Origin: a bacterium
Lineage (GTDB): Bacteria; Zhuqueibacterota; Zhuqueibacteria; Residuimicrobiales; Krinioviventaceae
Direction: 5' to 3'
DNA length: 64,000 nt
Assembly (NCBI GenBank): GCA_963674595.2
Contig: CAXXFV010000003.1
Location: 64,001-128,000, forward strand
Shown here: positions 1,354 through 42,777 of the stretch, in pieces
Numbering within the stretch: position 1 is the stretch's first letter
Layout: every line of letters starts with the position of its first letter
Made by a program: the position numbers and the translations under genes
The notes under the pieces: generated by a model
Database searches by the model: none
What the model saw: the letters and a program-made list of their open reading frames with translations, nothing else
Told to the model about the DNA's origin: nothing

Positions 1354-2302
1354 GTGGAAATAGACCTAATCATTACGGAGGGATTGAGACACTCAAAAAA
1401 TCAAGGTCAAGATGACAAGAATTATCAAAGTGGAAATAGACCTAATCATTACGGAGGGATTGAGACGATTTAAAAAATCATAAAAATCATTAAAAGGCTG
1501 TACTGAGTGGAAATAGACCTAATCATTACGGAGGGATTGAGACATGACCATCAAAATTGACAGACTTTAGAACTTCGTTCGCCGTGGAAATAGACCTAAT
1601 CATTACGGAGGGATTGAGACACAAAAATTATTTGCAAATAAAACTCTATTATTGTATGAGTGGAAATAGACCTAATCATTACGGAGGGATTGAGACTTTT
1701 CTGGATTATTGTTTGCTATGGCCAAATGAGAAGGTGGAAATAGACCTAATCATTACGGAGGGATTGAGACTAACAATCCATATGTAAATACGCTAGCCAG
1801 TTGTTTGATCGTGGAAATAGACCTAATCATTACGGAGGGATTGAGACGTCAACTGTAAAAGCCTGACAAAACACAACATCCACATCGTGGAAATAGACCT
1901 AATCATTACGGAGGGATTGAGACTCACTCGGCACCGGTTTAAACGGGGCAACGTCAGACCAGTGGAAATAGACCTAATCATTACGGAGGGATTGAGACCG
2001 TATTGTGTTATTACATTAGTGGGAAAGTTGGCTGAGTACTTGTGGAAATAGACCTAATCATTACGGAGGGATTGAGACTACTGATAAATTTAATGCGGCT
2101 AGTGCTAATATTTCTATGGCGTGGAAATAGACCTAATCATTACGGAGGGATTGAGACTTTTTAATATCACATTCTTTTTTATAAGCAAGTAAAAGATGTG
2201 GAAATAGACCTAATCATTACGGAGGGATTGAGACATAACGGTAATGATAATCAGAAGTAAAATTGAACAAAAAGTAGAAATAGACCTAATCACCACGGAG
2301 GG
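1354..2302 (+). CRISPR. CRISPR array 1: 12 intact 37-nt repeats GTGGAAATAGACCTAATCATTACGGAGGGATTGAGAC plus a degenerate, truncated repeat at 2274
   Basis: Repeats start at 1354,1430,1507,1584,1660,1734,1811,1887,1962,2042,2121,2198; unique spacers of about 37-43 nt. Confidence 0.98.
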
Positions 2303-2379
2303 GCCGTTTGAGGCGTGTTCAGTAGAACAGTTCCTTATGTTTTGTTGCGAAATGTTTTAGAAAAAATCCCCGAAGGCAG

Positions 2380-2416
2380 GCGGCCTTGCGTCGCTACGCT
2401 CCGCTTAGATTGAGAC
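2380..2416 (+). repeat. 37-nt repeat-like element GCGGCCTTGCGTCGCTACGCTCCGCTTAGATTGAGAC
   Basis: 35/37 identical to the reverse complement of 48892-48928; ends in the CRISPR handle GATTGAGAC. Confidence 0.8.
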
Positions 2417-2431
2417 AGTGAAAACATGAAA

Positions 2432-2460
2432 AGGCCTAATTACCACGGAACGATTGAGAC
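2432..2460 (+). repeat. Partial array-1-type repeat variant fused to the portal fragment
   Basis: CCTAATTACCACGGAACGATTGAGAC, identical to the 3' part of 47884-47920. Confidence 0.85.
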
Positions 2461-3147
2461 CCCACCCTCAATTAATAATACAAATGTCGGGTCACCGATC
2501 CTGACAACAGCATTCTTGATAGACTGCTGTATTCTTAACAATATCTCAGCAACAAAAGGCATGGAATTAAACAGACTCACACCCTGGGGATGACCATCTC
2601 TTAGATCAAATGTCAAATACTGAACAAATTCCGGGTGTTCCAAAAGAACAGGTTTTGCAGCATCATGAGGTATGGAAGCCAACCACAGTCTGCCGTCTTT
2701 CCGGATAAATCGGACCTTTGAAGCATCACCGACTTTTAACCGGTCAACTCCGTTCAAACCGGCAAAAGGAACAGTCTCAAAGACACCATAACCATTTGCC
2801 AGAGCAGAATCATAGAGTTGTTGTAAACACCCATGCAGCCCTTTGTGAAAATGTCCGACCTTGATCTCTTTTTTAAAATTATTCAGAGCTTTTAAAACGT
2901 TCGGATTATCACAACGGTATTCAAAATCACCGATTAATCTCCGAAGTTTTAACACAGCGACATCTAAAATGGGAATGGCTTCTCGGAGAATATTATAAAT
3001 CTTTAAATTGTATCTTAACGGTTCATATCCGTTTAAATAGGTCTGGAATGGGCTGTCACTTGCAGAATAAAGTTGGGATTTAACAATAACATTGTTGGAT
3101 TGTTTTGGTGGGAAATATTTATTAAGATTGAATTTTGGAAGGTTCAT
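2440..3147 (-). CDS. Truncated phage portal-like protein (copy 1), C-terminus and stop codon supplied by the CRISPR repeat
   Basis: Y..LREAIPILD.AV.KL.RLIGDF, ALANGYGVFE and HPQGVSLFNSMPFVAEILLRI motifs resemble phage portals; only 235 aa; last residues VSIVPW* come from the antisense repeat. Confidence 0.7.
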   Translation of the reverse strand: MNLPKFNLNKYFPPKQSNNVIVKSQLYSASDSPFQTYLNGYEPLRYNLKIYNILREAIPILDVAVLKLRRLIGDFEYRCDNPNVLKALNNFKKEIKVGHFHKGLHGCLQQLYDSALANGYGVFETVPFAGLNGVDRLKVGDASKVRFIRKDGRLWLASIPHDAAKPVLLEHPEFVQYLTFDLRDGHPQGVSLFNSMPFVAEILLRIQQSIKNAVVRIGDPTFVLLIEGGVSIVPW

Positions 3148-3267
3148 TAACTGCCCATATATAGAATGTATTCAAACAACACGCTCTATATATAGCAGAA
3201 TAGGGGTAATTAATCAATATTTTGTGGGTAATTCACCCATAGCTAGTAAAAAATTGTTAGGTATAAG

Positions 3268-3306
3268 GACAAGAACTCGGAGGGTAAATAAGTCTCCGAG
3301 TTCTTG
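3268..3306. terminator. Hairpin terminator downstream of the YWTD gene
   Basis: CAAGAACTCGGAG...CTCCGAGTTCTTG inverted repeat. Confidence 0.6.
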
Positions 3307-3315
3307 AAAGCTAAT

Positions 3316-5253
3316 TTACTTAAGGAGGATCATTTTTTTAATTTCATTCATACCACCGCCTTTAAGGCGATAAAAATAAGTTCCTGAAGGCAAGTTGGAA
3401 GCATCAAACAACACCTGATGCGTACCAGCCTGACAGTCATCGTCTAACAATACGGCAACCTTTTGTCCACTAATATTGTAAACCTTCAGGCTGTAATGAT
3501 CGTCTTTTGCCGCCCGGAATGTGATTGTCGTTTCCGGGTTAAAGGGATTGGGATAATTTTGATATAGCGCAAATTCCTGCGGGATTAAATTCGGTCCATC
3601 GTCTTTTTTCTCAACACCGGTCGAACCGTTATTTTCAAAGGACAAGGCCAGGCGATAGGGTGAAGACAAACCGGTATACAGTTCTTCTATATCTGTTCCG
3701 TCCAGATTTGCCCGTTTTATTTTACCGGCTTGATCTTCAATCCAATATACTTTACCACCGTCAACATCCAGGGCAATACCGGAGGGCCATTCAAGACTGG
3801 TAATTACATTCTGAATATCACTGCCATCCAAATTGGCACGTTTAATACCTCTATAATCTATAGCCCTTTCGGTCCAATATATCTTTTTATTTTTTAAATC
3901 AAGAGCAATATCGTCCGGTTGTCCAGTAGACTTTATAATTTTTTCAACATCATTACTGTCATTATTCAAATTGGCACCTAGAACCGTATTAAGTGAATTA
4001 CTCCAATATAATGTTCCATCAAAAGGGTCAACTGCAACTCCATACGCAAATCCATGTATGTAATAAGGGTATTCAACCCGGCTGCCATCTAAATTAGCAA
4101 AACCAACAGTTATGCCCTCTGATTGCCTGGCCCAATACATCTTTTCATTTACAACATCCAAAGCAATATCATTTAATGAAGCATTCGGATAAATTTCGTT
4201 TGTAAGAAACTCAACATTGGAACCGTCTGTATTACATTTGTAAATATTGGCATAAGAATTTGCCCAGTATATCTTTTCCCTTTCAGGGTCAAGAGCAATA
4301 CAAACAGGATATTCATAATTAACAATCAGTGGTTCGACATTTCGACCATCCAAATGGGAACGATAAATCGTCATAGACCAATAAAGATAAAACCAGTACA
4401 TCTCTCCCTTTGACAAATCCAGACTTAGATTTTGAACACCATAAATAAAACCGCTAACCAGTTCTATAAATTCAGTTCCATCGGTGTTCATGCTCCATAT
4501 CCCGCACCAATCGGTTAAATAAATCTTTTGGTTATTATGATCTAATTGAATCTCCATTTGAGGATTTATATTATCAAAGACATACACAATCTCTTCTTCA
4601 TTCCCGTCCAGATTTACACTCTTGAGAACACGACCGTTATCATCTAAAAAATAAATTCGACGATCTCTTCCATCTACAACATAATCAATTATCTTTTCAG
4701 TATGTTCTATGACTGATTTTATTTTTTCCCCATCCAAACCAGTGCAAAAGAGTGTATCACGCGTGTCATTCATCCAATAGAGATTTTCATAGACCAGATC
4801 CAGGGCCAGATTGTTGGGCCGGGTCAGTCCACAAATAAACTCCTGTTTGTTTGAACCGGTTATATCAGCCCGCCAAATCTTGCCGCTATCAGCGCTCCAA
4901 TACATTGTGCTGTGAAGCGTGTCAATAACCATACTGCTTGCCCGGCTTGTTTCGGAAATCAACGTTTCAACCTTTCGTGTCTCCATATTCTCACGCCGGA
5001 TGGCGTTCTCTTCATAATAATAAATATATCCCTGGGCTGCGGTTAACAACGTTACATCACGGGAAGAAAGCACTTTTTCATATTGACCGCCGTCAGCATC
5101 TCCGCAATATATCTTTTTGTCCTGTGTATCTGTCCAGTAAATTAATCTTTCCTTTGCTGTTACAACATTTAAAAGCGTGAAAAGGTTGTATACAGTAAAG
5201 AAAAACACAAATGTTGTTCTTTTTAACATGGCTGTATCCTTTTCATATATCAC
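3316..5253 (-). CDS. Secreted YWTD beta-propeller protein with T9SS/FlgD-type C-terminal sorting domain
   Basis: Signal peptide, many (I/M)YW(T/S)D..I.RANLDG repeats, FALYQNYPNPFNP...SGTYFYRL tail. Confidence 0.85.
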   Translation of the reverse strand: MIYEKDTAMLKRTTFVFFFTVYNLFTLLNVVTAKERLIYWTDTQDKKIYCGDADGGQYEKVLSSRDVTLLTAAQGYIYYYEENAIRRENMETRKVETLISETSRASSMVIDTLHSTMYWSADSGKIWRADITGSNKQEFICGLTRPNNLALDLVYENLYWMNDTRDTLFCTGLDGEKIKSVIEHTEKIIDYVVDGRDRRIYFLDDNGRVLKSVNLDGNEEEIVYVFDNINPQMEIQLDHNNQKIYLTDWCGIWSMNTDGTEFIELVSGFIYGVQNLSLDLSKGEMYWFYLYWSMTIYRSHLDGRNVEPLIVNYEYPVCIALDPEREKIYWANSYANIYKCNTDGSNVEFLTNEIYPNASLNDIALDVVNEKMYWARQSEGITVGFANLDGSRVEYPYYIHGFAYGVAVDPFDGTLYWSNSLNTVLGANLNNDSNDVEKIIKSTGQPDDIALDLKNKKIYWTERAIDYRGIKRANLDGSDIQNVITSLEWPSGIALDVDGGKVYWIEDQAGKIKRANLDGTDIEELYTGLSSPYRLALSFENNGSTGVEKKDDGPNLIPQEFALYQNYPNPFNPETTITFRAAKDDHYSLKVYNISGQKVAVLLDDDCQAGTHQVLFDASNLPSGTYFYRLKGGGMNEIKKMILLK

Positions 5254-5363
5254 AATTCTCTTATAACGTTATGATATCCTGTCATCAAACAGTTATAACC
5301 GAATGATGACAGGTTTGATTAACTTTTAATTCAAAATACTAGAACTTTTATTTCACTACCAAC

Positions 5364-7575
5364 TTACTTGATAAACATCATTGTACCGGATTGGGTAAAC
5401 GTGCCTGCGACGAGTTTGCAAATATAAGCGCCGCTGGATACCAGTTCACCGCTATTGTCCCGGCCGTCCCATAAAACCGATTTATAACCTTCTCCCTGCG
5501 GTCCGTTCGCCAAAACACGCACCTCTTCTCCCAGCATGTTGTATATTTTTAGGCTAACATGACAGGCTTCCGGCAAGGCATATTTTAGCACGGTTTGTGA
5601 ATTAAAGGGATTGGGATAATTTTGAAAAACAGATGATCTTTTAACACTATTATCGGCAAGGGCCATTACAGGTGCACCTTGTGAAACAGTCAGCTTTGAC
5701 ACACCGCCGCCCTGCGTCCCAAACCAGAATTCGTTTTTATCAATCGCTATCGCACGAACAGTATTAAAAGATAATCCCGAATTATTATAATTATAGTGAA
5801 ACCAGTTTTCTCCATCATATTTATATATGCCAAATGCATATCCCGCAAACCATACATTTCCATCACAGTCAGTCTCAATATCATAGGTATTCTGATTAGC
5901 ATCGTTTAAAACATCAAAAGTGGTCCATTGTTCTCCGTCATATTTATGCACGCCAAAAGCATGACCGCACCAAATGTTATTAAAACTATCAACGCCCACA
6001 GAATAGAGTGGAAAATCCCCGTAATGATCAGCAGGCATAATTTTTTCCCCCAATGTCATTTTCAAGTTTCAACAATCCTTGCCAGGTGCCAAACCAGACA
6101 CATCCATTTTTGTCAATAGCAAGAGAAGAAACATGATTATTTCTTATACCGTAATTCGTCGGATAGTACCGTTTCCAGTTTTCTCCATCAAACATTGCTA
6201 TACCGGAATCTGTTGTTATCCAGGCATTATCGTTCTTGTCAAATCTTATACAATAAACTCTGTCAGACTGCAAAACACTGTTTGATGTATTAATCCATGT
6301 CCAGCTTGTGTCATCCAATACCGAAATGCCTTCAAAAACATGTCCAAACCATATTTGCCCTGATTTACTAATAGCAATCGTCGTTATTCTATTATCTTTT
6401 ATACCGGAATTAGACTCGTTATAATATTTCCAGTTTCCATGATCATAGCATATAACACCGCCTTCATCGATAAAATCCCAATCACCCGTACCGGAACCAA
6501 ACCATACAGCACCATCATTGTCAACGGCTATTGACTGGATGTTGGGATGCGTCAATCCTCCATTAAGGGTTTTCCCGGTTTCAAAAATTTGCCAGGTCGC
6601 TCCGTCATAAACAGAGACGCCTTTAGATGTTCCAAACCAGATTCTGTTATCCTTGCCGAAAACAATTGAAGAAATATAATTACTGGATATACCAGAATTA
6701 TTCGTATTAAACGTGGTCCAGTTTAAGCCGTCCCAAACGCAAACGCCTTGATCTGTGCCAAACCATTTTCTCCCGGATGAATCAATCGCAATTGAAATAA
6801 TATTGTTACTGCAAATGTCACAATTATCTTTATTATAACCGGTCCATTTCTCGCCATCGTAAATGGACACACCCTTATCTAAACCGAAGATAACAGAACC
6901 GTGCCCATCCGAACACATTGCCTGAATATTATTGTTCTGCAAATAACTATTTTCAGTTGTGTAACTTCTCCAGTCATCACCATTTTTAATACTGACGCCT
7001 TCTGTTGTTCCAACCCATATTTGATCGTTTTCAGCGATTAACAATGACGTAACATAATCCGAAATGAGTCCGCTATTTTCAGAATTGAATGAATGCCATT
7101 GCGTTCCGTCAAAAAAACAAACACCACCGCTACGAGGAATCTCCCAATTAGAATAAGTGTCAACCTTGTGAAACCCAATCCAGATATTATTGTTACTATT
7201 GACGGCAATAGAACGCACCTCTCCTAATGATTGACCATTAAATAAATTGCTATTATCTATAGTTTCAAACCCGACATCATCAAAAACTGAAATTCCATAT
7301 TTTGAGGTACCAATCAGTTTATGTCCATCAACATCACCTGTAATGAATGTAAGAGAGTTACATGGCAAACCATCATCTTTTTCGTATTCTTTATATGAAA
7401 AATCTGTTTGATCCAATTTTATGAGCCCACCTTCTGTAGTAATCCAACAAAACTCATCATCGAGATAAAGAAAAGTAACATTCTCCTTACAGGTGTAATT
7501 ATCCCAAACATCTTTCTGCGAAAAAACAGGAACAATAATGACTAGTAATTGTATTGAGATTAATATTTTTTTCAT
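5364..7575 (-). pseudogene. Two-component-regulator-type propeller protein with sorting domain, split by a frameshift (ORFs 6028-7575 and 5364-6065)
   Basis: Continuous D..G..WFGT..G repeats across both ORFs; break lies in a G5A6 run at 6041-6051; QNYPNPFN tail in the second ORF. Confidence 0.75.
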
Positions 7576-7923
7576 AACAAATGCTCCTTTCGCAGGAGAT
7601 TTTGGATCCCCTGAGATACCAATGAAACCGGGATTTTATCCCAAAAACCAAAAAGTGACATCCCTTCGACTCCGCCCTGGGAAAACGACAGGTTGGATTC
7701 ATGTTTTTGATTTCAACATTTATTCAAGTGATTTTATATTCAACATCGTATTTCAGATTTAAAATATTATTTGAGATCTGAAAGTAGAAATTTTTTATTC
7801 TCTTGTTCGGGGAAAATGCCCCGATTACTGTCATATTGAGACGACTCTGATTCCCATGTTGAGCAAAAAAATGCGTTTTGATTCTGGATTTACACCTGTG
7901 CTAGTTGCTAAGTAATTTAACCA

Positions 7924-8403
7924 TTAGTTAATAACCTCAACACCTTCAATTTTAGTATTTCCATTTTTAAATTCTAAATTATCACCAAACTTTGACATAT
8001 CCAGAAAATAATTTAAGTGTTTTGGAAATTTCATTATTAAAAATTGTTCATTAAGATTTAGAATACTTGTAACTGTATTTAGAAATTTTAATTCATTGTC
8101 ATCAATTTTTTTATCAGCCTCTATAATTTTAAGTATAACTTCAACCAATAATAATTTTTGCTTTTCTTTTATTTCAAATTTTTGAAGAACTTTAAGATAA
8201 TTTTCTATATAATTAATACCTTGTGATTTTATATCATCGACAACTGATTTTAACTCATTCTCAAAATCAAGATTTAAAAAATATGGATTTGTCTTTGCAA
8301 TATTTTTGAATAAAGAAATTTCATTTCTATGAATCTCACCATCACAAGCCATAACAGCAAAAGCCGTTTTGAAAAGAACTCTATCAAAAGAAATATTTTC
8401 CAT
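7924..8403 (-). CDS. TerB-family protein
   Basis: AFAVMACDGEIHRNE and IIEADKKIDDNELKFL are the paired TerB motifs. Confidence 0.8.
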   Translation of the reverse strand: MENISFDRVLFKTAFAVMACDGEIHRNEISLFKNIAKTNPYFLNLDFENELKSVVDDIKSQGINYIENYLKVLQKFEIKEKQKLLLVEVILKIIEADKKIDDNELKFLNTVTSILNLNEQFLIMKFPKHLNYFLDMSKFGDNLEFKNGNTKIEGVEVIN

Positions 8404-8431
8404 TTTAATACCCTTTCTTCACAAAGAAAGA

Positions 8432-10912
8432 TTAATAAAAACCAATTTTTGATTTTAGCTCATCTTGAGATAACTCAGGTAACAAATTGAATAAGTCATA
8501 GACTACTTCTGCAAGCCTATCAAAATTCTCACAATTTATTGCAAACTTGCCCGCTTCAATCAAACCTTTTGCTTTTTCCTGATCATTAAATCTTTGACGC
8601 TCACTTGTAAGCCATTGAAATGTATCAATTAAGAATGAAGGTGTTCGCCAATTTATAGTCCACATTAAATCTTTTAATTTATCAGTTTGTTCTCTAATTT
8701 TTAGTATACTTTTAGAACTTAAGATAGTATGTTCCTGGTTAACAATGCCATTAAAATGTTTTTGCTCAACATCATTTCCATTTTCATTTATTGTTTCATA
8801 ACATATTTGTTTGACTTCAAGATACCGACTTTTTGCCATCTCAATCTCTTTATCTTGAGTAGCAATATATATTTTTTGGGCAACACTGCACTTCTTGTCT
8901 TCTAATTGATAACGTTTATCAGTTACATCATCTATTGATAAAATAAGAGATTCACCTATTAGCTCATCAATTTCAGATTTTAGACTCTTCAGGTCTTTTG
9001 CAGATTCATAATTTTCTAACTCAATAGCAAATTTTATTTCTTTATCTATTTTCTCAGATAATTCAGATATTTGTTCAGACAATACTTCTTGTGGAACACT
9101 TCTCATAGTTGGGCTAAAGATCTCTTTAAATTCTTGATCAGTCATTGTAAGATAAGCAGAAACTGTTAAATCACGTGATTCAGACATCTCTAATGAAATT
9201 TCAATATCAGAGCCTTTTGCAATATTCCGATTTATACCTTTACCTGAAATCTCTAGAAAACCAATACTTCTATTGGCTTCTGGGAGGGCATAATGTGGCC
9301 CTTCTAAAATATTGATACGAAGAAAATCATCTGAACCTTTCACAATTATTCTATTAATTTCTTTTATCTTTGAGTATCTTAAAGGGAGAATAGAATTTTT
9401 TTGAAAAACCAATTCACAACGAGTATGTTTACTCTCAAAGTCATCAACTTCCAAACAAATATCATTTGGAAGCGGCTGACCTGCAATACTAAATTTCCCC
9501 TGAGCGATTCCTATTGGCTCAACATCAACAGGAATCTTGTTATTTTGTTCATCATAAATAGAAATATTAAAATAATTATAACTATCATTTACAAGCGGCA
9601 AATCTTCGGATATTTTTTTTGATAGCAGTTTTAATCCGGTATCAAATCCCCCGTCTTCTCTTACAATTCTGTAAAATAGACCTTCAACATTACCTTCTAT
9701 TTTTGCTGCAAAAAATTCTTCAGATTCTTTAGTAGCTTTCTGGTAGGCGGTTTTAATTATAAGTTTATTTTCAACATATGATTTGGGTTTTTCATCTTTT
9801 ATAACTTTTTGTTTTGTTCCTGCATAATATGCAGCACCAATTGCAATTGCAGTAGTCGGATCAATCTCACAGTTTATAGGGAGTTGCATAATTTCATTTA
9901 CACGGTTTCTTACTAATGGAATATATGTAGAACCTCCAACCATAAGTATAAAATCAATATCATTAGATGTAAGTGAATTTTGAACCATTATCTTTTTAAT
10001 CATTTCAATTGATTTATCAATATATTGCTGAATCATAGATTCAAATTCAGAACGAGTAATAGTGATAATTATTTCATGAGTTTCACCATCTTCATCGGTT
10101 ATATCAAATTCAATTTCAGCAGATGACTTTGCTGATAATTGAATTTTTGCCTGTTCTGCCTGATGAAGTGCTATATAAAATACTGAATTATACTTCCCAG
10201 AAGCGCTTTTCATTTCCTTTTCTAAATTTTTAAAATTATATTCAGCTTCTAAATATGGTATTATCTTCTTCTCAACAATAAGTCGGTCGAAATCAGATCC
10301 ACCTAAAAAATTATCACCTTCATGATCTAGTATTTTCATTTCACCGTCATTAATTTTTACAAGAGCAACATCAAAGGTACCTCCACCAAGATCGTATACA
10401 ATCCATTGGCCATCTTTTAAATCATTCATTCTTTTGTTGGCATAAGCCAAACTAGCTGCGATTGGTTCTTGTAATAGAACAACCTGTTTAAAACCGGCTA
10501 ATCTACCAGCTTCCTTTGTTGCATTTGATTGAATTGTATCGAAAGATGCAGGAATTGTAATCACTGTAGAATCAATTTGTGTCCCAGATTGTACAAAATT
10601 CTTTAGCTCTTTTATTATATGGGCGGATAACTCAATAGGTGTAACAGATTTTCCTATTGAATTTATTTTATATGCTTCATTTGTCCCCATTTTCCGCTTA
10701 AAAGAAGAAATAACATTTTTTGGAGATTTCTCTAAATAACTTTTTGCCTGTTCACCGACTATAATTTTATCTTTTCTAAAAAGGACAACTGAAGGTAAGG
10801 TGTCTTTCCAACTTATAGGATTTTTGTAAATATTTACTTCACCTTTTGTAAATTTTGCGATTACAGAATTTGTTGTGCCGAGATCAATACCAAAATTAAT
10901 CATATTTTCCAT
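8432..10912 (-). CDS. Atypical Hsp70/DnaK-family protein (826 aa, helical C-terminal extension)
   Basis: GIDLGTTNS, TIPASF, EPIAA, YDLGGGTFD, LGGSDFD, VGGSTYIP motifs. Confidence 0.92.
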   Translation of the reverse strand: MENMINFGIDLGTTNSVIAKFTKGEVNIYKNPISWKDTLPSVVLFRKDKIIVGEQAKSYLEKSPKNVISSFKRKMGTNEAYKINSIGKSVTPIELSAHIIKELKNFVQSGTQIDSTVITIPASFDTIQSNATKEAGRLAGFKQVVLLQEPIAASLAYANKRMNDLKDGQWIVYDLGGGTFDVALVKINDGEMKILDHEGDNFLGGSDFDRLIVEKKIIPYLEAEYNFKNLEKEMKSASGKYNSVFYIALHQAEQAKIQLSAKSSAEIEFDITDEDGETHEIIITITRSEFESMIQQYIDKSIEMIKKIMVQNSLTSNDIDFILMVGGSTYIPLVRNRVNEIMQLPINCEIDPTTAIAIGAAYYAGTKQKVIKDEKPKSYVENKLIIKTAYQKATKESEEFFAAKIEGNVEGLFYRIVREDGGFDTGLKLLSKKISEDLPLVNDSYNYFNISIYDEQNNKIPVDVEPIGIAQGKFSIAGQPLPNDICLEVDDFESKHTRCELVFQKNSILPLRYSKIKEINRIIVKGSDDFLRINILEGPHYALPEANRSIGFLEISGKGINRNIAKGSDIEISLEMSESRDLTVSAYLTMTDQEFKEIFSPTMRSVPQEVLSEQISELSEKIDKEIKFAIELENYESAKDLKSLKSEIDELIGESLILSIDDVTDKRYQLEDKKCSVAQKIYIATQDKEIEMAKSRYLEVKQICYETINENGNDVEQKHFNGIVNQEHTILSSKSILKIREQTDKLKDLMWTINWRTPSFLIDTFQWLTSERQRFNDQEKAKGLIEAGKFAINCENFDRLAEVVYDLFNLLPELSQDELKSKIGFY

Positions 10913-10917
10913 AATTA

Positions 10918-11292
10918 TTACCTTTTATTGTTTTTCTGGGACTCAACAATGACCACTGCTTTTTGAATAATAAACATTCTTTCTTTCTGATGGAGTCTTA
11001 TTATTGGCTTAATTACTTCTGTTATTACAAGATTTTCTGTTTTCTCTCCAGCAATACTTGCTTCACAATCAGTTCTTGTCTCATTAAATTTTTCACCTAT
11101 TGGATTGTAGTAAGATAACCCTCCTTCTTTTCCAATTATACTTGTTTTGAAATGATCTTTCAATTGCTGGAGGTTCCTTGAAATTGAATTTTCGTCACTT
11201 AGCTTTTTAACCTTTTTTTCTATTTCAAAAATTTGATTTAAAATAAAAGAAAAGTACTTAATCTCATCGGAAATTTTTTGTTGAATATGCAT
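10918..11292 (-). CDS. GrpE-like protein
   Basis: PIGEKF...ITEVIKP.I......IIQKAVVIV resembles the GrpE beta-domain; directly upstream of Hsp70. Confidence 0.6.
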   Translation of the reverse strand: MHIQQKISDEIKYFSFILNQIFEIEKKVKKLSDENSISRNLQQLKDHFKTSIIGKEGGLSYYNPIGEKFNETRTDCEASIAGEKTENLVITEVIKPIIRLHQKERMFIIQKAVVIVESQKNNKR

Positions 11293-11301
11293 ATTTTATC
11301 C

Positions 11302-12117
11302 TTATTTAAAAAAATCATATTCATTAATAGTAGATTGTTTCATATTACCCCCGATTACGCTAAGTTTAATATGTATGGTTGAATATTGATAACCATTATC
11401 CTGTAATTTAAAAACATCATTGCTGCTTGAAGATTCGCTAAAATGAAAATCTGTCTCAAAACCACCTTTAATACTACCATTTTTAAATTTTTTATTTGGA
11501 TTCCAATCTTTACCAAAGAATTCTTTAATATAATATGTTCCATTCGGAACATTTGTCATTTGAAAAGAAGAACCGGCCCTAATGTATTCATTTCTAATAG
11601 TTTTCCCAGAGTAGTAGTTTACCAAACAAACTACTGCATCATAATTTTTATCTGTTTCTATTTGAATCCAATTTTGATGTGATTTATTATAGATACCTTT
11701 TCCAAAATAACTATCATAAGGAGATGTACCATTTTTCAAGAAATTACCTTTGTATTTACTAAAGGTACCAGTCTCATCTAGTATATACCGATTTTCATTC
11801 GTGGAATTATTATTATCGGATTCGTTTTGTGAATAGCTACTAGATTTATAATTATTACCAGATTCATTGTATGAATAGTTGCTAGAGCTAGAATTGTTTG
11901 AATTTAAAATTACAGTAATTAGCCAAATACAAAGCAATAAAATTACGCTATATTTCCAAATTTTTTGCAATGTATATAATTGTAATTTCCCATAAAATTT
12001 ATATTGGCCAGTATATGTTTTGTCATAAGAATACCGGGCGATAGGTAATATAGGTATACCGAATAATACAAAATATAGAGTTTTTCCATAGATTATAGTA
12101 CCACAACCATTAATCAA
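11302..12117 (-). CDS. Membrane-anchored protein; probable C-terminal half of the 12146-13333 gene
   Basis: Hydrophobic segments plus Ser/Asn linker; joins in frame with the upstream ORF if the A11 tract is A10 (EKKKYGEPIKSAPSLKLINGCGT). Confidence 0.65.
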   Translation of the reverse strand: MINGCGTIIYGKTLYFVLFGIPILPIARYSYDKTYTGQYKFYGKLQLYTLQKIWKYSVILLLCIWLITVILNSNNSSSSNYSYNESGNNYKSSSYSQNESDNNNSTNENRYILDETGTFSKYKGNFLKNGTSPYDSYFGKGIYNKSHQNWIQIETDKNYDAVVCLVNYYSGKTIRNEYIRAGSSFQMTNVPNGTYYIKEFFGKDWNPNKKFKNGSIKGGFETDFHFSESSSSNDVFKLQDNGYQYSTIHIKLSVIGGNMKQSTINEYDFFK

Positions 12118-12145
12118 TTTTAAACTTGGTGCGGATTTAATTGGT

Positions 12146-13333
12146 TCACCATACTTTTTTTTTTTCTTCTAATAAACTTGATAGAGAATATTTATCTTCT
12201 TCTATTTTATTCTTGAGATCATTTGGGATTTCTATCTTGAGTGCCATTTCTATGAATATAATTGAAGTTTCAACATCGTTGCACATATTCCAGGTAGACA
12301 CCGATAGATTTCTTAGTGTGAGAGCAAGCTGAATTCGGACTTCATCGAATAAGCTTGGTAAAGAATTCAGCTCAAAAATATCAATATTTTTTTGTAATTC
12401 TTGCAGAACAATTGTTGGCCTAATATCTTTATTATCTATTTTTTCTATAAACTTTTTCGAATTAACAAACAATAATGCATATTTTTTTAAAGTAGGTTCA
12501 TACTTTTCTGTTTCTTTTCGCTCTAAATTTATTTCTTCAATTTTTGTTAAATCATGCCTTATCTTATCATTCGATAAACCATCAATTTTAATACCCAAGG
12601 CAAACCTTATCATACTTATCGAAACTTCAGCATCACCGATGTTATTAAATATATCTATTGACAAATTGCGTAATGCAAAAGATAAATTATTTCTAGACTC
12701 TTGAAAATAAAAAGGAAGTAAATTTATACTTTGGTGATGTATTTTATCTTTGATATTTTCATCTAATTTACAAATATTTTCTTCATTATATTCGCTCGTT
12801 TCATTTTTAATATTTTTGGATATTTGCTCAAGCCATTTAATTTTATTTTGAATATAATTATATGTTCCTTGAAAAGCTTGGTCTTTAAAATCATTGTTTA
12901 CTAACAATGGTAAAGAATTAAGTATATTTAGGGCTTTTACACTTTTTTTTTCCAAAGCTTTTATTAATAATTCAGAATATTTGGGGGCATAATATGGGCT
13001 GATGAAATCAATGAATTTAGATAAATTAAATATTGATTCGTGTCTAAAATTGATAAAAAATTTAGTTTCACCATTGAATAAAAAATTGTTTAATTCTTTA
13101 TAATTATACAGAAAAAAATAGAACTCTTTTTTATTATCATCTTCCAGTTCATCAAAGGATTTTAAAATATCTGATTTATTGAATTTCTGATTTTTAATAT
13201 TAATTGAATTATCATCACTTAATTCTATTTCGGCAAGAATTCTTTTTTTGCTCTTTTTTATTGTTATAGAATCAAGTTCTGATATTGACTTGAGGGGAAT
13301 TTTAAATAAATCTAAAGGATTAAGATATCGCAT
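12146..13333 (-). CDS. Helical-repeat protein with degenerate J-domain-like N-terminus
   Basis: NPLDLF.I......ITIKKSKKR start; internal repeat (RNNLSFALRNLS / RIQLALTLRNLS); ends in an A11 tract. Confidence 0.55.
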   Translation of the reverse strand: MRYLNPLDLFKIPLKSISELDSITIKKSKKRILAEIELSDDNSINIKNQKFNKSDILKSFDELEDDNKKEFYFFLYNYKELNNFLFNGETKFFINFRHESIFNLSKFIDFISPYYAPKYSELLIKALEKKSVKALNILNSLPLLVNNDFKDQAFQGTYNYIQNKIKWLEQISKNIKNETSEYNEENICKLDENIKDKIHHQSINLLPFYFQESRNNLSFALRNLSIDIFNNIGDAEVSISMIRFALGIKIDGLSNDKIRHDLTKIEEINLERKETEKYEPTLKKYALLFVNSKKFIEKIDNKDIRPTIVLQELQKNIDIFELNSLPSLFDEVRIQLALTLRNLSVSTWNMCNDVETSIIFIEMALKIEIPNDLKNKIEEDKYSLSSLLEEKKKVW

Positions 13334-13533
13334 AAAATTTGTCCAGATTTAACAGGAAAAAATATAACATTTGTAAACGAAAGAACACTAATCATAGTAT
13401 CATATTTGAAACATCAAAATATAGTTTAGATGTCTTAATCAAGTGGTAAATATTTTCTCTCAAAAAAACGTTTCGATTAGTTTTGATATAAACAACCCAC
13501 ACCCTACCGCACTCAAAAATATTGACCGCAAAC

Positions 13534-13737
13534 CAACAGGAATGTAATACCGTAACCGACGCAATCTCTTCCTCGTATGTGTATAAGAATCCCATAATTA
13601 TAAAAATGGTGGTAAATCAGTCAGGGATCTCAGAAACTCCCGTGCTCGACCAAATCGTCCTGAAAAATCGTCCTTTTACCTGATAAAATAATGATACAAA
13701 CTTTTTATTTTTCCCGCAAGCTGTTTTTAAAAAATTT
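13534..13737 (-). ncRNA. Conserved promoter + putative structured RNA element, copy B
   Basis: TTGCGG-17-TATCAT promoter; clear nucleotide homology to 52780-52980 and weaker homology to 461-640. Confidence 0.6.
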
Positions 13738-13980
13738 ATCTGCTACTTCCATCACAAAAAAAGCCCCATATTACGACGGGGCTTATTAACGATTGAATTC
13801 CAATAATATTAATGTTCAGTTCTCTATAATCACCACCTCCTTTTATATAATTCAACATCTATATCTATCATCTTGCATCAATCCAGACGCAGGCAACACA
13901 GCCCTGGTCACCTATCACTTGAACGACCTTCCGGTCTAATAGTTGATTTTAAGAGTCAGGAATGCATTATAATCTTTGTA

Positions 13981-14571
13981 CTATATATTAATACTTAATT
14001 GTTCCGAATAAACTTTTATTAATTCATTCCAGGGCTGCTTTTGAGATAATAAAGGCCATTTATGACTCGTGGTTGCCAATTGATGCAATGCCTCAAATGT
14101 CTTGTGCCCAACATACCGATTAGCGAATTGAAACACATATCGTCCAATTAAGGCACTGTCGATCTCTGGTATATTTCTTAAATTCAACTGAAGAGTCTGT
14201 AACGTCATTTGACGCTTCATATAATCCTGGTGTCCGGACCGGTTCCATTGTGCCGGATTAATGAGAATATGCGAATCAAATATCTCTTTACAGATCGTCA
14301 ATTGAGTTTGACTGACATGGGCATTTACTTCCCATGTCATGTTCCCGTTTGTATACTGCTCATGATCCTCAATCACTGCAAAAGCAATATTATGATGTTG
14401 CCTGGTTTTGAATAATCTTTCACTGTAATCAAGATGTTTAAAATATTTTATTGTTCCTGTGTTTATATATTTACCATACTGGTCCCAGATGGTCAAACCG
14501 GTAAAATTACCAGGGGAAATACTCACAAAAGTTACATTATTCATAATCACACCTTTTATTTTAATTTTCAA
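13981..14571 (-). CDS. RuvC/RNase H-fold-like phage protein lacking the first acidic residue (copy 1)
   Basis: FVSISPG.FTG..IW..., AVIED, EIDSALIG; close paralog of 58236-58805. Confidence 0.5.
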   Translation of the reverse strand: MKIKIKGVIMNNVTFVSISPGNFTGLTIWDQYGKYINTGTIKYFKHLDYSERLFKTRQHHNIAFAVIEDHEQYTNGNMTWEVNAHVSQTQLTICKEIFDSHILINPAQWNRSGHQDYMKRQMTLQTLQLNLRNIPEIDSALIGRYVFQFANRYVGHKTFEALHQLATTSHKWPLLSQKQPWNELIKVYSEQLSINI

Positions 14572-15145
14572 GCCATGGTTTTAATTGATTGACCGTCGGA
14601 TATGGCAGTTGTTTTAAAGCCATCTGCTTCATGGCAACAAATCCGCCACCATTTGTGTCAAAATCAATAATTTCAAAAGTCAGTTTGCCCATAAGAGCAG
14701 AATCCGTCTGATGAGAATTTGGCAGTTGTTCTCCGAATAGATCCCTGGACCATTGTCGTTTGAATTTATCTTTACATTTATTCCGGTTCCATTGTGTGTG
14801 AAAGATCAGGATATGATCCGGAAACACTTCTTTACATACCTGGATTTGAATTGATACTTTATACGAGTTTTTTCTTTTCATACCGATAAACGGTTTGTAA
14901 TCTTCAAGAAGAATAAATTCAAGGTTGTACTCTTTTTTAATTTGTTCCAGTAACAGTCTGTATTGTTGTGTGTCTTTAAAGGGTAGATTCTTTGAACAAA
15001 CCTTTGATCCCATACTGTTAAAAACACTGATCCCACCCGGATTACCCGGATCAACAGCACCCCAAAATCTGTTTAAATTCGACATGGTTTCTATCTTTCG
15101 AGATTCCACCAAAGCTGTAATCATATTATTCTGTAGTCGAATCAT
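14561..15145 (-). CDS. RuvC-like resolvase/nuclease (copy 1)
   Basis: WGAVDPGNPGGISV, ILLED, TDSALMG; paralog of 58809-59435. Confidence 0.55.
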   Translation of the reverse strand: MIRLQNNMITALVESRKIETMSNLNRFWGAVDPGNPGGISVFNSMGSKVCSKNLPFKDTQQYRLLLEQIKKEYNLEFILLEDYKPFIGMKRKNSYKVSIQIQVCKEVFPDHILIFHTQWNRNKCKDKFKRQWSRDLFGEQLPNSHQTDSALMGKLTFEIIDFDTNGGGFVAMKQMALKQLPYPTVNQLKPWLEN

Positions 15146-15159
15146 GTCAAACTCCTTTT

Positions 15160-15700
15160 CTATTTCTCATTGATATTCAATAATTCAATCTTTTTCCAAT
15201 TTAATTCTCTGGACATCGTATCTGTCGCAAAGTGTTTTTGCTCTTCCACCTTGCTGTTATTTTTATAAGCATCCAAAAAATGTTTACGTGTAGCAGCAAT
15301 GGCAGTGGTTGATCTTATTTCAGGACCCCACTGTACAAGCAAAGGATATAAATGCCCTTCACCGTTTTTCTGCATTCGCTTTTCTATCATCATCATCATA
15401 CAGGAACCAATGGATGGGTCATAAAAATGGTCAAGATACATTTTAATCCGGTTCCAGGCTACCTGAGCTTGTTGTTGAAGAGGGTCCTGTCCCCGTAAAT
15501 CTGCCGGTGACGGGAAAAAAAGCATTTTTATTTCTAAAATATAAAACAGCATTCTTTTCAATTTCCTTAAAACTCAAGTCCTGTAATACCTTGAAATAAA
15601 AATCTATCTTCTCTGCTGTCAATGGTTGGTTATTATTCACAGCAACAGTTTCCATTTGCAACATGAGTTTTGAAAAACATTCTCTATCTTTCTCAGTCAT
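15160..15700 (-). pseudogene. Phage replication-associated (DUF6475-like) gene split by a frameshift
   Basis: ORF 15443-15700 ...NAFFP continues as FFPSPADLR..AQVAW in ORF 15160-15561; extra T in a T7 run (15515-15521). Confidence 0.55.
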
Positions 15701-15864
15701 ATATCAACCTCTATGATAAGACATTAAGATGTTACCTTTTTATTAATTTCATCATCAACGGATGTTACATCTGTTGATGGATTCTTTTTGCTCGAATCTC
15801 TCAGGTCGTCGTATTTAATCGACGACCCGGAGTATTTATAGAACATGGCAACAAACCAAAAATC

Positions 15865-16275
15865 CTAAAACGGCAGGTCTTCTGCTTGTTCATCAGGAAA
15901 GTTTGTTTGTTGTTCCTGTTCATAGGTTTGGCTGAATTGTAAAATCTGTACCTGTTCAGCTTGTATTTCAGTCATATATTGCTTGTTTCCATCTTTATCA
16001 TCCCAGGAACGAGTGGCTAACTTGCCTTCGATATAAACCAGATCACCCTTTTTAGCATATTGAGAAATCATTTCTGCTGTTTTTCGCCAAACAACAACAC
16101 GATGCCATTCTGTTTTTTCGACAATTTCTCCGTCCTGTGATTTATAAGATGTATTGGTTGCCATGTTTAACGTCACAACAGCCACTTCAGAAGGAGTGTA
16201 TTTGATTTCCGGGTCTTTACCTAATCGACCGATTAACATGACTTTGTTTAATGTAGCTTTACTATTGTATGCCAT
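15865..16275 (-). CDS. ssb: Single-stranded DNA-binding protein
   Basis: LNKVMLIGRLGKDPE, TEWHRVVVW, IEGKL.TRSW, DLPF tail. Confidence 0.95.
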   Translation of the reverse strand: MAYNSKATLNKVMLIGRLGKDPEIKYTPSEVAVVTLNMATNTSYKSQDGEIVEKTEWHRVVVWRKTAEMISQYAKKGDLVYIEGKLATRSWDDKDGNKQYMTEIQAEQVQILQFSQTYEQEQQTNFPDEQAEDLPF

Positions 16276-16280
16276 TTTTA

Positions 16281-17928: not shown

Positions 17929-17936
17929 AATTCACC

Positions 17937-18203
17937 TCAAAAATTTAATTTATCCTGATCTGTAAATCCTATTTGCATATTCTCAATGATTTGATTCATA
18001 AGGATTTCTTTGACATTCATATTGGAATAGGCTATTTTGACAGCCCCTTGTAATGCCACCATTCCAATAGAATTGTTCCCACCAAGAATGATTTGTGCCA
18101 GAGACACAATATCATGATCAATGGTGATGTCGATGTTTAAATTCTCTATTAGCATTTTTGCTGCTGAGACTTGTCTCTCCTTTGAAGGAACTTCTTTTAT
18201 CAT
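17937..18203 (-). CDS. Hypothetical phage protein
   Basis: ORF with RBS in a co-oriented phage gene run. Confidence 0.5.
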   Translation of the reverse strand: MIKEVPSKERQVSAAKMLIENLNIDITIDHDIVSLAQIILGGNNSIGMVALQGAVKIAYSNMNVKEILMNQIIENMQIGFTDQDKLNF

Positions 18204-18251
18204 TTCTCATCTCCAATTATATTTATGTCATTTCTCATGGCCATATAAACT

Positions 18252-19994: not shown

Positions 19995-20289
19995 GTAGAA
20001 ATGTCTGGCCGCTAACAGAATTATATAAAAATTGTATTAATTTCTGTAAGGACCACCCTCATAATAAACTCGATTTGTTATTGCCAAAAAACTGGGAAAA
20101 GATCGTCATATCTCATTAATTTTTTTTGTCAAGGTGTAGATCAACGGATGCATACATAAATGCTATAATGAGTCCCGTTAGCACCGATATTTAATTATTC
20201 CTTAACCATAATCTATATATCTTACTTTTTATGATAATATACTATATAAATTAAATTTAAAATAAAGCTAATGATCATATTGGATTCGA

Positions 20290-39667: not shown

Positions 39668-39751
39668 TAGACACAATCCAAGACAACGACATATCGAGTT
39701 TTTCGCCCTTGTTTATGATATACAGAATTTCTAAAACCAAGGACAAATGCA

Positions 39752-42724: not shown

Positions 42725-42777
42725 TAAATACCAAAATCAGCATCCAGTTCTTTTAAATGAGTTAAAGGTCAATTTTT

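What the first reader, a model, noticed from the sequence alone, without database searches (positions are those of the whole stretch)
2432..3250. Phage portal gene cut and capped by a CRISPR repeat, at the same nucleotide, in two diverged prophage units
Seen: both array 1 and array 3 end in the same repeat variant (..CCTAATTACCACGGAACGATTGAGAC). It abuts, with no gap, the antisense strand of a 235-aa portal-like ORF and supplies its last codons and stop (LIEGG|VSIVPW*). The two ORF copies (2440-3147, 47900-48607) differ by many third-position changes but only about 6 mostly conservative residues, and both remain open. Known: some temperate phages integrate into CRISPR repeats. Inference, three alternatives: (a) site-specific recombination between an att site inside the portal gene and a CRISPR repeat occurred repeatedly; (b) Cas1-Cas2-type integration joined a very large phage fragment to a repeat; (c) the truncated portal is a domesticated, selected product such as a dominant-negative portal or decoy. 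Array read-through would also yield anti-portal RNA carrying a crRNA 5' handle.
Basis: partly seen in the sequence, partly recalled or inferred. Interest (0 to 1): 0.85.

Follow-up and report, generated by a model that had tools for sequence, protein, structure and literature searches.

The report
Half portal gene fused to CRISPR repeat
The front half of a prophage portal gene is joined, exactly where a spacer would begin, to the last repeat of type III CRISPR arrays at three places in this genome; it is most likely a scar of phage-CRISPR recombination, and any function remains unproven.

Summary
The genome holds three such stubs: window 2440-3147, window 47900-48607, and a third on contig C9. 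It also holds two near-identical full-length portal genes in resident prophages. All three stubs stop after codon 229 (...LIEGG). They continue into the reverse complement of one variant trailer repeat, R*, which supplies VSIVPW and the stop codon.

The phage DNA begins at the exact base where a spacer would begin. Its orientation makes the array transcript antisense to portal mRNA. The arrays belong to type III systems whose adaptation genes sit beside reverse-transcriptase genes.

No orphan C-terminal half exists in the assembly. No second R* lies at the other unit ends. This argues against an att site inside the portal gene.

dN/dS is 0.013-0.030. That does not prove domestication, for three reasons:
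- The rest of unit 3 is equally intact.
- One stub shares a nearly identical ~190-nt tract with a full-length copy.
- No amino-acid change is shared by the stubs alone.

Best reading (about 0.4): a spacer-protospacer recombination scar, later spread and refreshed by recombination with intact phage copies. It may still yield an anti-portal crRNA. A dominant-negative portal is not excluded.

The parts
1354..2234 (+). CRISPR array 1: 12 type-1 repeats (GTGGAAATAGACC...ATTGAGAC). The leader lies after a frameshifted cas2.
2274..2416 (+). Trailer repeat split by a 106-nt insert. The 29-nt repeat body is 2274-2302, the insert 2303-2408, and the 8-nt repeat end ATTGAGAC 2409-2416.
2424..2460 (+). R*, the variant terminal repeat of array 1. 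Its 5' part is degenerate; its core 2435-2460 is identical in all three copies.
2440..3147 (-). Stub ORF 1, 235 aa. Portal codons 1-229 occupy 2461-3147. VSIVPW and the stop (2440-2460) are read from the reverse complement of R*.
3148..3252 (-). Upstream (promoter/operator-like) region of the portal gene, conserved in all five copies. It contains an inverted repeat, CTATATATAGAA...TTCTATATATAG.
2461..20058 (.). Prophage remnant U1. It holds the stub, cargo genes for T9SS-tailed proteins, TerB and an Hsp70-like protein, then an exonuclease, an Mgm101-type annealing protein and regulators. It has no terminase.
44318..47883 (+). CRISPR array 3: 48 type-2 repeats downstream of the Card1, RT-primase, Cas1 and Cas2 genes.
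47884..47920 (+). R*, a full 37-nt type-1-like repeat that closes the type-2 array 3.
47900..48607 (-). Stub ORF 3, 235 aa. Portal codons 1-229 occupy 47921-48607.
48738..48929 (-). CRISPR-trailer fragment in the phage-native position upstream of the portal promoter. It comprises the right end of the split-repeat insert with ATTGAGAC, a degenerate repeat, and an ~88-nt hairpin followed by a U-run.
47921..64000 (.). Half-prophage U3, which runs on past the window end. It holds the stub, cargo, a tyrosine recombinase (51820-52812), terminase large subunit (53281-55008), replication genes and RecT (62132-63319). It is collinear with the complete prophage on contig C10.
21071..35117 (+). Type III effector genes: Cas10, RAMP proteins, CARF proteins and Cas6.
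38555..44050 (+). Card1, an RT-AEP primase fusion, Cas1 and Cas2. This is the adaptation module of array 3.

Best explanation
The ORF is the first 229 codons of a tailed-phage portal gene: the wing part, ahead of the stem, clip and crown. The gene belongs to a prophage family that also has two intact copies in this genome.

The stub is fused to the 3' boundary of a degenerate trailer-end type III CRISPR repeat (R*). The phage DNA therefore sits in the place of a spacer, in the sense that makes the array transcript complementary to portal mRNA.

Most likely history:
- A portal-targeting spacer next to R* recombined homologously with its protospacer in a prophage or infecting phage of this family. 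These phages carry RecT- or Mgm101-type annealing proteins and an exonuclease.
- That event removed the distal repeat and the phage's structural half. It left R*|portal-N, cargo, terminase, replication genes and integrase.
- The R*-stub joint was later carried to three loci by recombination among related prophages and arrays. It keeps exchanging sequence with intact portal genes. That is why it stays open and differs almost only at synonymous sites.

As a by-product, R* plus the adjoining antisense portal sequence could still mature into a type III crRNA against portal mRNA. From recall, type III crRNA 3' ends are trimmed and need no downstream repeat.

Shown: the anatomy, the copy number, the absence of a second half, the substitution pattern, and one tract shared between a stub and a full-length gene. 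Inferred: the recombination mechanism, the order of events, and any crRNA or protein function.
For: - The junction lies exactly at the repeat end ATTGAGAC| in 3 of 3 copies, and the full-length genes read straight on at that point.
- The array sense is antisense to the portal gene. Both repeat types belong to type III loci with RT and Cas1.
- No terminator-like site was found on the + strand between array 1 and the stub.
- Divergence drops sharply at the junction. In the last 60 nt of the stub, stub 1 differs from stub 3 and stub C9 at 9 and 7 bases. In the stub 1 / stub 3 pair all 9 are silent. The 28-nt R* core differs at 0-1.
- Stub 1 differs from the full-length C3 copy at 2 of the first 187 nt, against 18 of the next 200. 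About 60% of informative site pairs fail the four-gamete test.
- Each stub is about as far from its sister full-length prophage as the rest of its unit is.
- In U3, 17 of the 18 C10 genes from terminase to integrase have intact counterparts. Fifteen of them are 90-99% identical in protein; one small ORF was not found.
- No amino-acid change is shared by the three stubs alone. The two stub-only sites are third positions.
- The units encode RecT, an Mgm101-type protein and an exonuclease.
- A hypothetical 40-nt guide has 2-6 mismatches to the resident full-length portals, and the target flank does not match the 8-nt tag.
- CRISPR-trailer fragments also lie upstream of the portal promoter in the phage copies. 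This shows repeated DNA exchange between this phage family and these arrays.
Against: - No spacer matching the portal survives. 0 of 144 spacers hit anywhere else in the genome.
- No reciprocal junction was found.
- The permutation test for clustering of compatible sites was not significant (p = 0.27). Part of the incompatibility may therefore be recurrent third-position mutation rather than recombination.
- Changes unique to the stub lineages are 34 synonymous to 6 non-synonymous. Stub 1 has four silent changes in its last 15 nt. Selection on the stub protein itself would explain both equally well.
- Unit 1 has lost its terminase and other genes but keeps an intact stub and upstream region.
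- In copies 1 and C9 the 5' part of R* is degenerate, so Cas6 processing there is uncertain.
- No RNA data were available.
- No related junction turned up outside this genome.
Confidence: 0.4

Rival explanations
1. The stub is a domesticated protein. A truncated portal (wing domain only) is expressed from the retained late promoter when a related phage infects or is induced. It poisons portal-ring or procapsid assembly as a dominant-negative decoy.
For: - The ORF is open in 3 of 3 copies, with dN/dS 0.02-0.03 between stubs.
- Singleton changes on stub lineages are 34 synonymous to 6 non-synonymous.
- All 9 differences between stub 1 and stub 3 in the last 60 nt are silent, right up to the junction.
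- The part of R* that is translated is invariant, while the part beyond the stop differs at 6 of 9 bases between copy 3 and the other two.
- The upstream region is conserved.
- The stub survives in the decayed unit 1.
- The cut lies after a strand (222-227) and before the long helices of the stem, clip and crown. The stub is therefore roughly the wing part.
Against: - No amino-acid change is specific to the stubs.
- The neighbouring genes of unit 3 are just as conserved.
- A tract shared with a full-length gene shows exchange that can keep the frame open without selection.
- No stub-like protein of this kind was found elsewhere. The search gave 2 hits, neither repeat-capped, and the short hits among the 150 listed of 885 representatives look like fragments.
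- Expression is not shown.
Confidence: 0.2
2. The joint was made by the adaptation machinery (Cas1-Cas2, here beside RT genes) or by another illegitimate end-joining event. A long phage DNA end would have been ligated to the spacer-side boundary of a trailer repeat. The joint was then copied.
For: - The junction is exactly at the repeat boundary that Cas1 attacks. This is established knowledge of spacer integration, from recall.
- Cas1, Cas2 and RT genes lie next to both array types.
Against: - Integration normally occurs at the leader-proximal repeat, whereas R* is at the trailer end.
- Nothing marks the portal site as a DNA end. Any cos or pac site is expected near the terminase genes, and this was not tested.
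- There is no precedent for kilobase-scale integration. This rests on recall, and the searches listed none.
Confidence: 0.12
3. The half-prophages are mobile satellite-like elements whose fixed left end is the R*-stub. They would spread as units, helped by the intact prophages, and land at or beside CRISPR repeats. R* could then act as an element-borne solitary repeat, like an RNA anti-CRISPR.
For: - There are three diverged units, each with intact packaging and replication genes but no structural genes.
- The C9 copy sits beside only two degenerate repeats, far from any array.
- R* is far more conserved than the adjoining DNA.
- Solitary repeat units on phages are a known counter-defence (PMC10651486; only the search listing and the start of the abstract were seen).
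Against: - No repeated end sequence or second R* was found at the other unit ends.
- The right ends differ between U1-type and U3-type units.
- Unit 1 lacks the terminase and has a broken integrase nearby.
- No copies were found in the viral, metagenome or genome collections.
Confidence: 0.1
4. Site-specific integration: the phage attP lies inside the portal gene and attB is the CRISPR repeat, so integration splits the gene and excision restores it.
For: - The same nucleotide is used in three units from two prophage sub-families.
- A phage that integrates into CRISPR repeats is known. It is PhiAP1.1, whose attP shares 8 bp with the repeat (bioRxiv 10.1101/2020.10.09.333658; abstract and section 5 read).
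- A tyrosine recombinase gene lies between the terminase gene and the stub in U3.
Against: - No orphan C-terminal half exists.
- R* is absent from the other unit ends.
- The crossover would lie at the repeat/spacer boundary, so the shared core would fall in variable spacer DNA.
- The complete prophage on C10 is integrated elsewhere, with a different integrase at its end.
- U1 and U9 lack the recombinase found in U3.
Confidence: 0.06
5. Assembly artefact: a chimeric join at repeated sequence.
For: Logan k-mer contigs break around the repeats, and none listed spans the window's junction with 31 nt on both sides.
Against: - There are three copies in different contexts, 6-9% diverged from each other, all with the identical joint.
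- A contig from a run of another study carries the C9 flank, the split repeat, R* and the first 12 nt of the stub.
Confidence: 0.02

Closest known systems
Spacer-protospacer homologous recombination between phages and CRISPR loci (Varble et al. 2019, staphylococci). This is recalled: only the title phrase appeared, inside other papers.
   Same: Phage DNA is joined to an array with the repeat/spacer boundary kept intact. The homology is the length of a spacer. The phage family here carries its own recombination proteins.
   Different: - Here it is a fixed chromosomal product that has lost the structural half of a prophage, and it is present in three diverged copies.
- The arrays belong to type III loci that carry RT genes.
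- Neither the founding spacer nor the reciprocal product is seen.
Prophage integration into CRISPR repeats (PhiAP1.1 of Streptococcus pyogenes; bioRxiv 10.1101/2020.10.09.333658, abstract and section 5 read)
   Same: A prophage is physically joined to a degenerate terminal CRISPR repeat.
   Different: PhiAP1.1 uses an 8-bp attP core inside the repeat. It leaves repeat parts on both sides and stays whole and excisable. Here the joint is at the repeat edge, only one side exists, and an essential phage gene is cut in half.
Solitary repeat units / RNA anti-CRISPRs and cr-like regulatory RNAs on mobile elements (PMC10651486; 10.1101/2023.03.03.530964; 10.1101/2024.10.29.618823; search listings only)
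   Same: A single CRISPR-like repeat lies next to phage DNA, outside a normal repeat-spacer-repeat unit. The C9 copy is the clearest case.
   Different: Those elements are short, stand-alone RNA genes. Here the repeat overlaps the end of a 235-codon ORF. In two of three cases it is simply the last repeat of a large host array.
Type III tolerance and targeting of prophage late genes (PMC5754349, search listing only; Goldberg et al. 2014, recalled)
   Same: A crRNA antisense to a late-gene transcript would spare a silent prophage and act on induction. Intact target prophages co-reside here.
   Different: Those cases use an ordinary spacer between two repeats. Here the putative guide is the start of a 687-nt gene fragment, and its activity is untested.

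Membership tests
Tailed-phage portal protein | Sequence match to a portal family | tested here: met
   PHROG 30703 'portal protein': the stub matches at E 1.4e-27 and the full-length paralogues at about E 1e-59 to 1e-61. Pfam gives no hit.
Tailed-phage portal protein | Portal fold (wing, stem, clip, crown) | tested here: met
   Tested on the full-length paralogue only. The model has pLDDT 86.6. Every hit listed by Foldseek against the PDB is a portal or neck-portal entry, with E about 1e-10 to 3e-8 and TM 0.39-0.61. An HMM search of PDB sequences gave a weak hit to portal gp45, E 0.005.
Tailed-phage portal protein | Complete protein able to form the channel (stem, clip, crown present) | tested here: not met
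   The stub ends at residue 229 of 467. It lacks helices 234-256, 288-302 and 322-354 and the C-terminal helices.
Tailed-phage portal protein | Gene position between the terminase gene and head-morphogenesis or capsid genes | tested here: met
   On C10 the order is terminase, then cargo, then portal, then a minor-head / head-morphogenesis homologue, then tape measure. In the stub units the downstream genes are absent.
CRISPR repeat of the type-1 family (R*) | Repeat-length sequence similar to the array's repeat, with the conserved 3' end ATTGAGAC, at the array end | tested here: met
   R* of copy 3 is within 7 substitutions of the 37-nt type-1 repeat and closes array 3. The 26-nt core is identical in all 3 copies. 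The 5' 9 nt is degenerate in copies 1 and C9.
Prophage integrated into a CRISPR repeat (PhiAP1.1 type) | Crossover inside the repeat, with repeat-derived attL and attR on both sides of a whole prophage | tested here: not met
   The joint is at the repeat edge. There is no second R* and no C-terminal half. The structural half of the phage is missing.
Spacer-protospacer recombination product | Phage sequence begins exactly at the repeat/spacer boundary | tested here: met
Spacer-protospacer recombination product | A matching spacer, or the reciprocal junction, can be found | tested here: not met
   0 of 144 spacers match elsewhere in the genome. No repeat|portal-C junction exists. The founding spacer would have been consumed by the event, so this does not exclude the mechanism.
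Functional type III crRNA unit | Repeat with the 8-nt tag upstream of a guide complementary to a transcript, with the target flank not matching the tag | tested here: met
   The tag ATTGAGAC is kept and the guide sense is antisense to portal mRNA. There are 2-6 mismatches in 40 nt to the resident portals, and the target flank is GTACCTCT.
Functional type III crRNA unit | Transcription, Cas6 cleavage and loading | not testable with these tools
   No RNA run is listed for this sequence.
Solitary repeat unit / RNA anti-CRISPR | Stand-alone repeat on a mobile element with its own promoter, binding Cas proteins | not tested
   Only the C9 copy is away from an array. Promoter and binding could not be tested.

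The most novel reading that the evidence does not exclude
R* plus the portal stub acts as a self-renewing 'living spacer'. The guide is the first ~40 nt of a 687-nt gene fragment, so homologous exchange with incoming or resident phages of the family keeps rewriting the guide to current phage alleles, and the crRNA does not go out of date. The silent differences that run right up to the junction would then be updates. The stub protein may add a second, dominant-negative layer of interference.
Probability: 0.1. Interest if true: 0.85.

Novelty: new variant of a known kind. Interest (0 to 1): 0.55.

Why it matters
Recombination between phages and CRISPR arrays is known from laboratory work in staphylococci and streptococci. 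Natural, fixed products that cut an essential phage gene at a repeat boundary are, to my knowledge and in the searches, not described.

If the joint is a recombination scar, it is a natural record that spacers serve as homology arms that reshape prophages and delete their lytic half. If R* still gives a crRNA, or the stub a poison subunit, it would be a new way for a host to hold a whole phage family in check. It would also be a case where immunity memory is kept current by recombination rather than by new spacer acquisition.

All of this can be tested with small-RNA sequencing and simple phage assays in this organism.

Tried and rejected
**Searches outside this genome**
- Exact R* patterns found nothing in genome contigs, metagenome contigs or viral contigs.
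- The search for related loci with the stub found nothing in metagenome contigs (590 pattern matches, none confirmed) or viral contigs (32 pattern matches, none confirmed).
- In 40 related genomes, 4 had only full-length portals at 41-51% identity.
- The search for homologous proteins gave 2 hits. One is a partial full-length protein and the other a 234-aa protein at 45% identity whose end looks frameshifted rather than repeat-capped.
- The profile search gave 885 relatives. The short ones I looked at (P0068, P0131, P0132) are not repeat-capped.

**RNA evidence**
- No RNA holder is listed for this stretch.
- Rfam gave nothing at gathering score in the window and only a chance-level hit near 49082-49200.

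**Reads**
- Logan contigs are broken at the repeats. None listed bridges window position 2460/2461 with 31 nt on both sides.

**Other checks that led nowhere**
- No tRNA lies in the window or in 7 flanking loci.
- Sigma-70-type promoter and terminator scans were uninformative. Counts were at or below the shuffles.
- A search for an att core between the ends of the C10 prophage gave only two AT-rich 13-mers.
- The first structure model, built from 8 sequences, was unusable at pLDDT 45. It was redone with 82 sequences.
- The PHI-like permutation test for recombination was not significant.

**Ideas rejected on paper**
- Inversion between inverted repeats, or deletion through the shared GGAGGG hexamer, would give ...GGAGGG|ATTGAGAC. 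The observed joint is ...GGAGGG|GTCTCAAT.
- RNA-derived (RT) insertion is rejected because homology to the full prophages runs on for more than 16 kb upstream of the gene.

- Supplementary files of papers were not requested.
- Complex prediction was not used, because a stub-portal pass would only reflect likeness to solved portal rings.
Full report
**Observation**

Array 1 of the window has 12 type-1 repeats (1354-2234). They are followed by a repeat split by a 106-nt insert (2274-2416) and by a variant repeat, R* (2424-2460). Array 3 has 48 type-2 repeats and ends in a full 37-nt R* (47884-47920).

Directly after R*, with no gap, the minus strand carries an ORF at 2440-3147 and at 47900-48607. 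It reads ...LIEGG|VSIVPW*. The last six codons and the stop are the reverse complement of R*.

Over the 687 portal bases the two copies differ at 63 positions, split 10/1/52 by codon position, and at six residues.

**What the ORF is**

- Pfam finds nothing.
- PHROG 30703, 'portal protein', matches residues 23-223 to profile positions 4-205 of 386 at E 1.4e-27.
- Searching the whole genome with that family gave six places. Three are open frames of 243 aa that all match positions 4-205: the two in the window and a third on contig C9. Three are full-length genes of 456-475 aa.
- Two of the full-length genes (C3:9501-10928 and C10:44231-45658) are about 98% identical in protein to the stubs over residues 1-229. 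They continue ...LIEGG|RGTNYTDLK....
- A model of the C10 protein built from 82 homologues has mean pLDDT 86.6. Every hit listed against the PDB is a portal or neck-portal entry, with E about 1e-10 to 3e-8.
- The cut falls after strand 222-227 and before the long helices 234-256, 288-302 and 322-354 and the C-terminal helices. The stub therefore keeps roughly the wing part and lacks what I read as stem, clip and crown. That domain naming is my inference from the secondary-structure order.

**The junction**

On the coding strand the stubs read ...ATTGA(A/G)GG(A/T)GGG|GTCTCAATCGTTCCGTGGTAA. The full genes read ...GGG|AGAGGTACAAAT.

On the array strand this is ...ATTGAGAC|CCC(T/A)CC.... The phage DNA starts at the base where a spacer starts. 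Its sense makes the array transcript antisense to portal mRNA.

**The CRISPR systems**

Both repeat types belong to type III systems.
- Cas10, RAMP proteins, CARF proteins and Cas6 lie at 21071-35117. Card1, an RT-AEP primase fusion, Cas1 and Cas2 lie at 38555-44050, in front of array 3.
- A second locus with Cas10, RAMP proteins, RT and Cas1 lies just upstream of the window, beside a 6-kb type-1 array.

**The prophage units**

- The stub at 47921 heads a block that is collinear with contig C10 for about 20 kb at 91-95% identity.
- C10 carries a complete prophage of about 44 kb: tail and tape-measure genes, head genes, portal, a variable cargo region, terminase, replication and recombination genes, regulators, and an integrase next to host genes.
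- Unit 3 of the window is the right half of such a phage. Of the 18 C10 genes from terminase to integrase, 17 have intact counterparts. Fifteen are 90-99% identical in protein; the last two are 66% and 58%; one small ORF was not found.
- Unit 1 (2461-20058) is of a second sub-family, like the prophage at the start of contig C3. It has lost the terminase and neighbouring genes.
- The C9 unit has the same joint next to only R* and the split repeat. No array is present there.
- No orphan C-terminal half of the portal exists in the assembly, which is 97.6% complete, by protein or DNA search.
- R* occurs only three times and never at the other unit ends.

**Substitution pattern**

- Pairwise dN/dS among the three stubs and the two full genes is 0.013-0.030, with dS 0.27-0.53. 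The stubs are no closer to each other than to the full genes.
- Changes unique to one sequence are 34 synonymous to 6 non-synonymous in the stubs, and 26 to 2 in the full genes.
- No amino-acid change is shared by the stubs alone. The two stub-only sites are third positions.
- About 60% of informative site pairs fail the four-gamete test, although a permutation test for clustering was not significant (p = 0.27).
- Stub 1 differs from the full C3 gene at 2 of the first 187 bases, against 18 of the next 200 and 8 of the 93 upstream bases. This looks like a recent conversion tract.
- Divergence drops sharply at the junction. In the last 60 nt, stub 1 differs from stub 3 at 9 bases and from stub C9 at 7. 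In the stub 1 / stub 3 pair all 9 are silent. The first 28 nt of R* differ at 0-1. Beyond the stop codon, 6 of the next 9 bases of R* differ between copy 3 and the other two.

**Reading**

The att-site idea needs a second half and a second att copy. Neither exists. The crossover would also lie in variable spacer DNA, unlike PhiAP1.1, whose 8-bp core is inside the repeat.

The joint at the exact spacer position, in the sense a type III guide needs, is what homologous recombination between a portal-targeting spacer and its protospacer would leave. If array and prophage late genes were convergent, spacer and protospacer are direct repeats. Recombination between them deletes the distal repeat and the structural half of the phage. 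This family encodes RecT, an Mgm101-type annealing protein and an exonuclease. From established knowledge of such systems, these can use homologies as short as a spacer.

That R* is one shared variant argues for one founding event. Each stub is about as diverged from its sister full prophage as the rest of its unit is, and there is a visible conversion tract. Both argue that the joint was later moved and refreshed by recombination within the conserved portal 5' half. With flap removal such exchange can reach the last homologous base.

On this view the low dN/dS is inherited from working phage genes. It does not show selection on the stub. I cannot exclude such selection. The silent-only changes at the very end of stub 1, the invariance of the translated part of R*, and the survival of the stub in decayed unit 1 all fit a functional truncated portal.

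**Possible activity**

From recall, type III crRNAs are cut by Cas6 8 nt from the repeat end and are trimmed at the 3' end without need of a downstream repeat. R* followed by antisense portal sequence could therefore give a guide.
- Such a guide would have 2-6 mismatches in 40 nt to the two resident full portals.
- The target flank is GTACCTCT, unlike the tag, so the target would count as non-self.
- The stub's own mRNA carries the anti-tag, so it would count as self.
- No terminator-like site was found on the array strand before the stub.

None of this is shown. No RNA run was available.

**Support from reads**

Logan contigs are fragmented at the repeats. Runs X1, X3 and X5 show the full-length continuation at 2461. 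In run X3, which is from another study, a 373-nt contig carries the C9 host flank, the split repeat, R* and 12 nt of the stub. That is below the 31-nt bridging rule. No relative of the joint was found in other collections.

**Literature**

- I read the abstract and section 5 of the PhiAP1.1 preprint.
- RNA anti-CRISPRs (PMC10651486), cr-like RNAs (10.1101/2023.03.03.530964; 10.1101/2024.10.29.618823), type III prophage tolerance (PMC5754349) and the P22 portal wing paper (PMC13386823) were seen only as search listings.
- The 2019 paper on spacer-mediated phage-CRISPR recombination and the work on type III crRNA trimming are recalled and were not seen.
- None of the titles listed describes a phage gene fused at the spacer position of a terminal repeat. 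'Truncated portal' had 0 occurrences in the 8 papers listed.

**Verdict**

This is a real and unusual structure, best seen as a new variant of phage-CRISPR recombination. Its mechanism is inferred and its function open.

Noticed in passing
window 2303-2408; also C3:43.9 kb, C9:149.6 kb, C29:107.7 kb; partial copy at window 48890-48929: A ~106-nt insert sits exactly 8 nt before the 3' end of a trailer-proximal type-1 repeat, which is the expected Cas6 cut site. It occurs in 4 full copies and 1 partial copy. The ends are conserved (GCCGTTTG... and ...GGCGGCCTTGCGTCGCTACGCTCCGCTNAG) and the interior is variable. On C29 its left end occurs twice in tandem. A consensus fold pairs the insert's right end with the repeat body. 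A Logan contig of run X5 shows the same repeat without the insert.
   Followed up: partly
window 48738-48846 (-); also C3:43730-43830, C9:148.6-148.8 kb, C10:45.77-45.89 kb, C25:13.56-13.69 kb: An ~88-nt hairpin followed by a U-run (-36.9 kcal/mol, z = -3.15) follows the last degenerate repeat of the big type-1 array. The same element, with a degenerate repeat, lies just upstream of the portal promoter in the phage copies. This phage family therefore carries a CRISPR-trailer fragment. Rfam gave no match.
   Followed up: partly
window 868-1145 and 1-210: The cas2 gene in front of array 1 is frameshifted (2 stops in the direct reading). An IstB-like ATPase gene end lies at the window start. The adaptation module of array 1 looks decayed.
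   Followed up: no
window 36171-37330: An IS3-type insertion sequence (rve transposase plus HTH_Tnp_1 ORF) splits array 2 into 35335-36120 and 37426-38352.
   Followed up: no
window 39752-42724: A 990-aa fusion of reverse transcriptase, TPR, AEP primase (TOTE type) and a Mu Gam-like domain lies directly upstream of cas1-cas2. A separate RT lies next to cas1 at the other type III locus (C3:51.0-52.8 kb).
   Followed up: no
window 44689-44988 and 46099-46398: A 300-nt stretch of array 3 (repeats and spacers) is duplicated exactly within the array.
   Followed up: no
window 3316-13333 and 48864-52812: The region between the terminase gene and the portal is a variable cargo slot. In unit 1 it holds T9SS-tailed beta-propeller proteins, TerB and an 826-aa Hsp70-like protein. 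In unit 3 it holds DUF5677, a T9SS-tailed CHAP protein and a SAM_4-type tyrosine recombinase. A ~300-nt sequence at its inner border (13460-13900 and 52780-53050) recurs on at least five other contigs.
   Followed up: partly
window 20300-20700: Remains of a tyrosine-recombinase gene (C-terminal motif region with stops) lie just beyond the right end of unit 1, before the type III cas10 gene.
   Followed up: no
all arrays of the genome: None of the 144 spacers from seven repeat clusters matches anything else in the genome, although at least five related prophage units are resident.
   Followed up: yes
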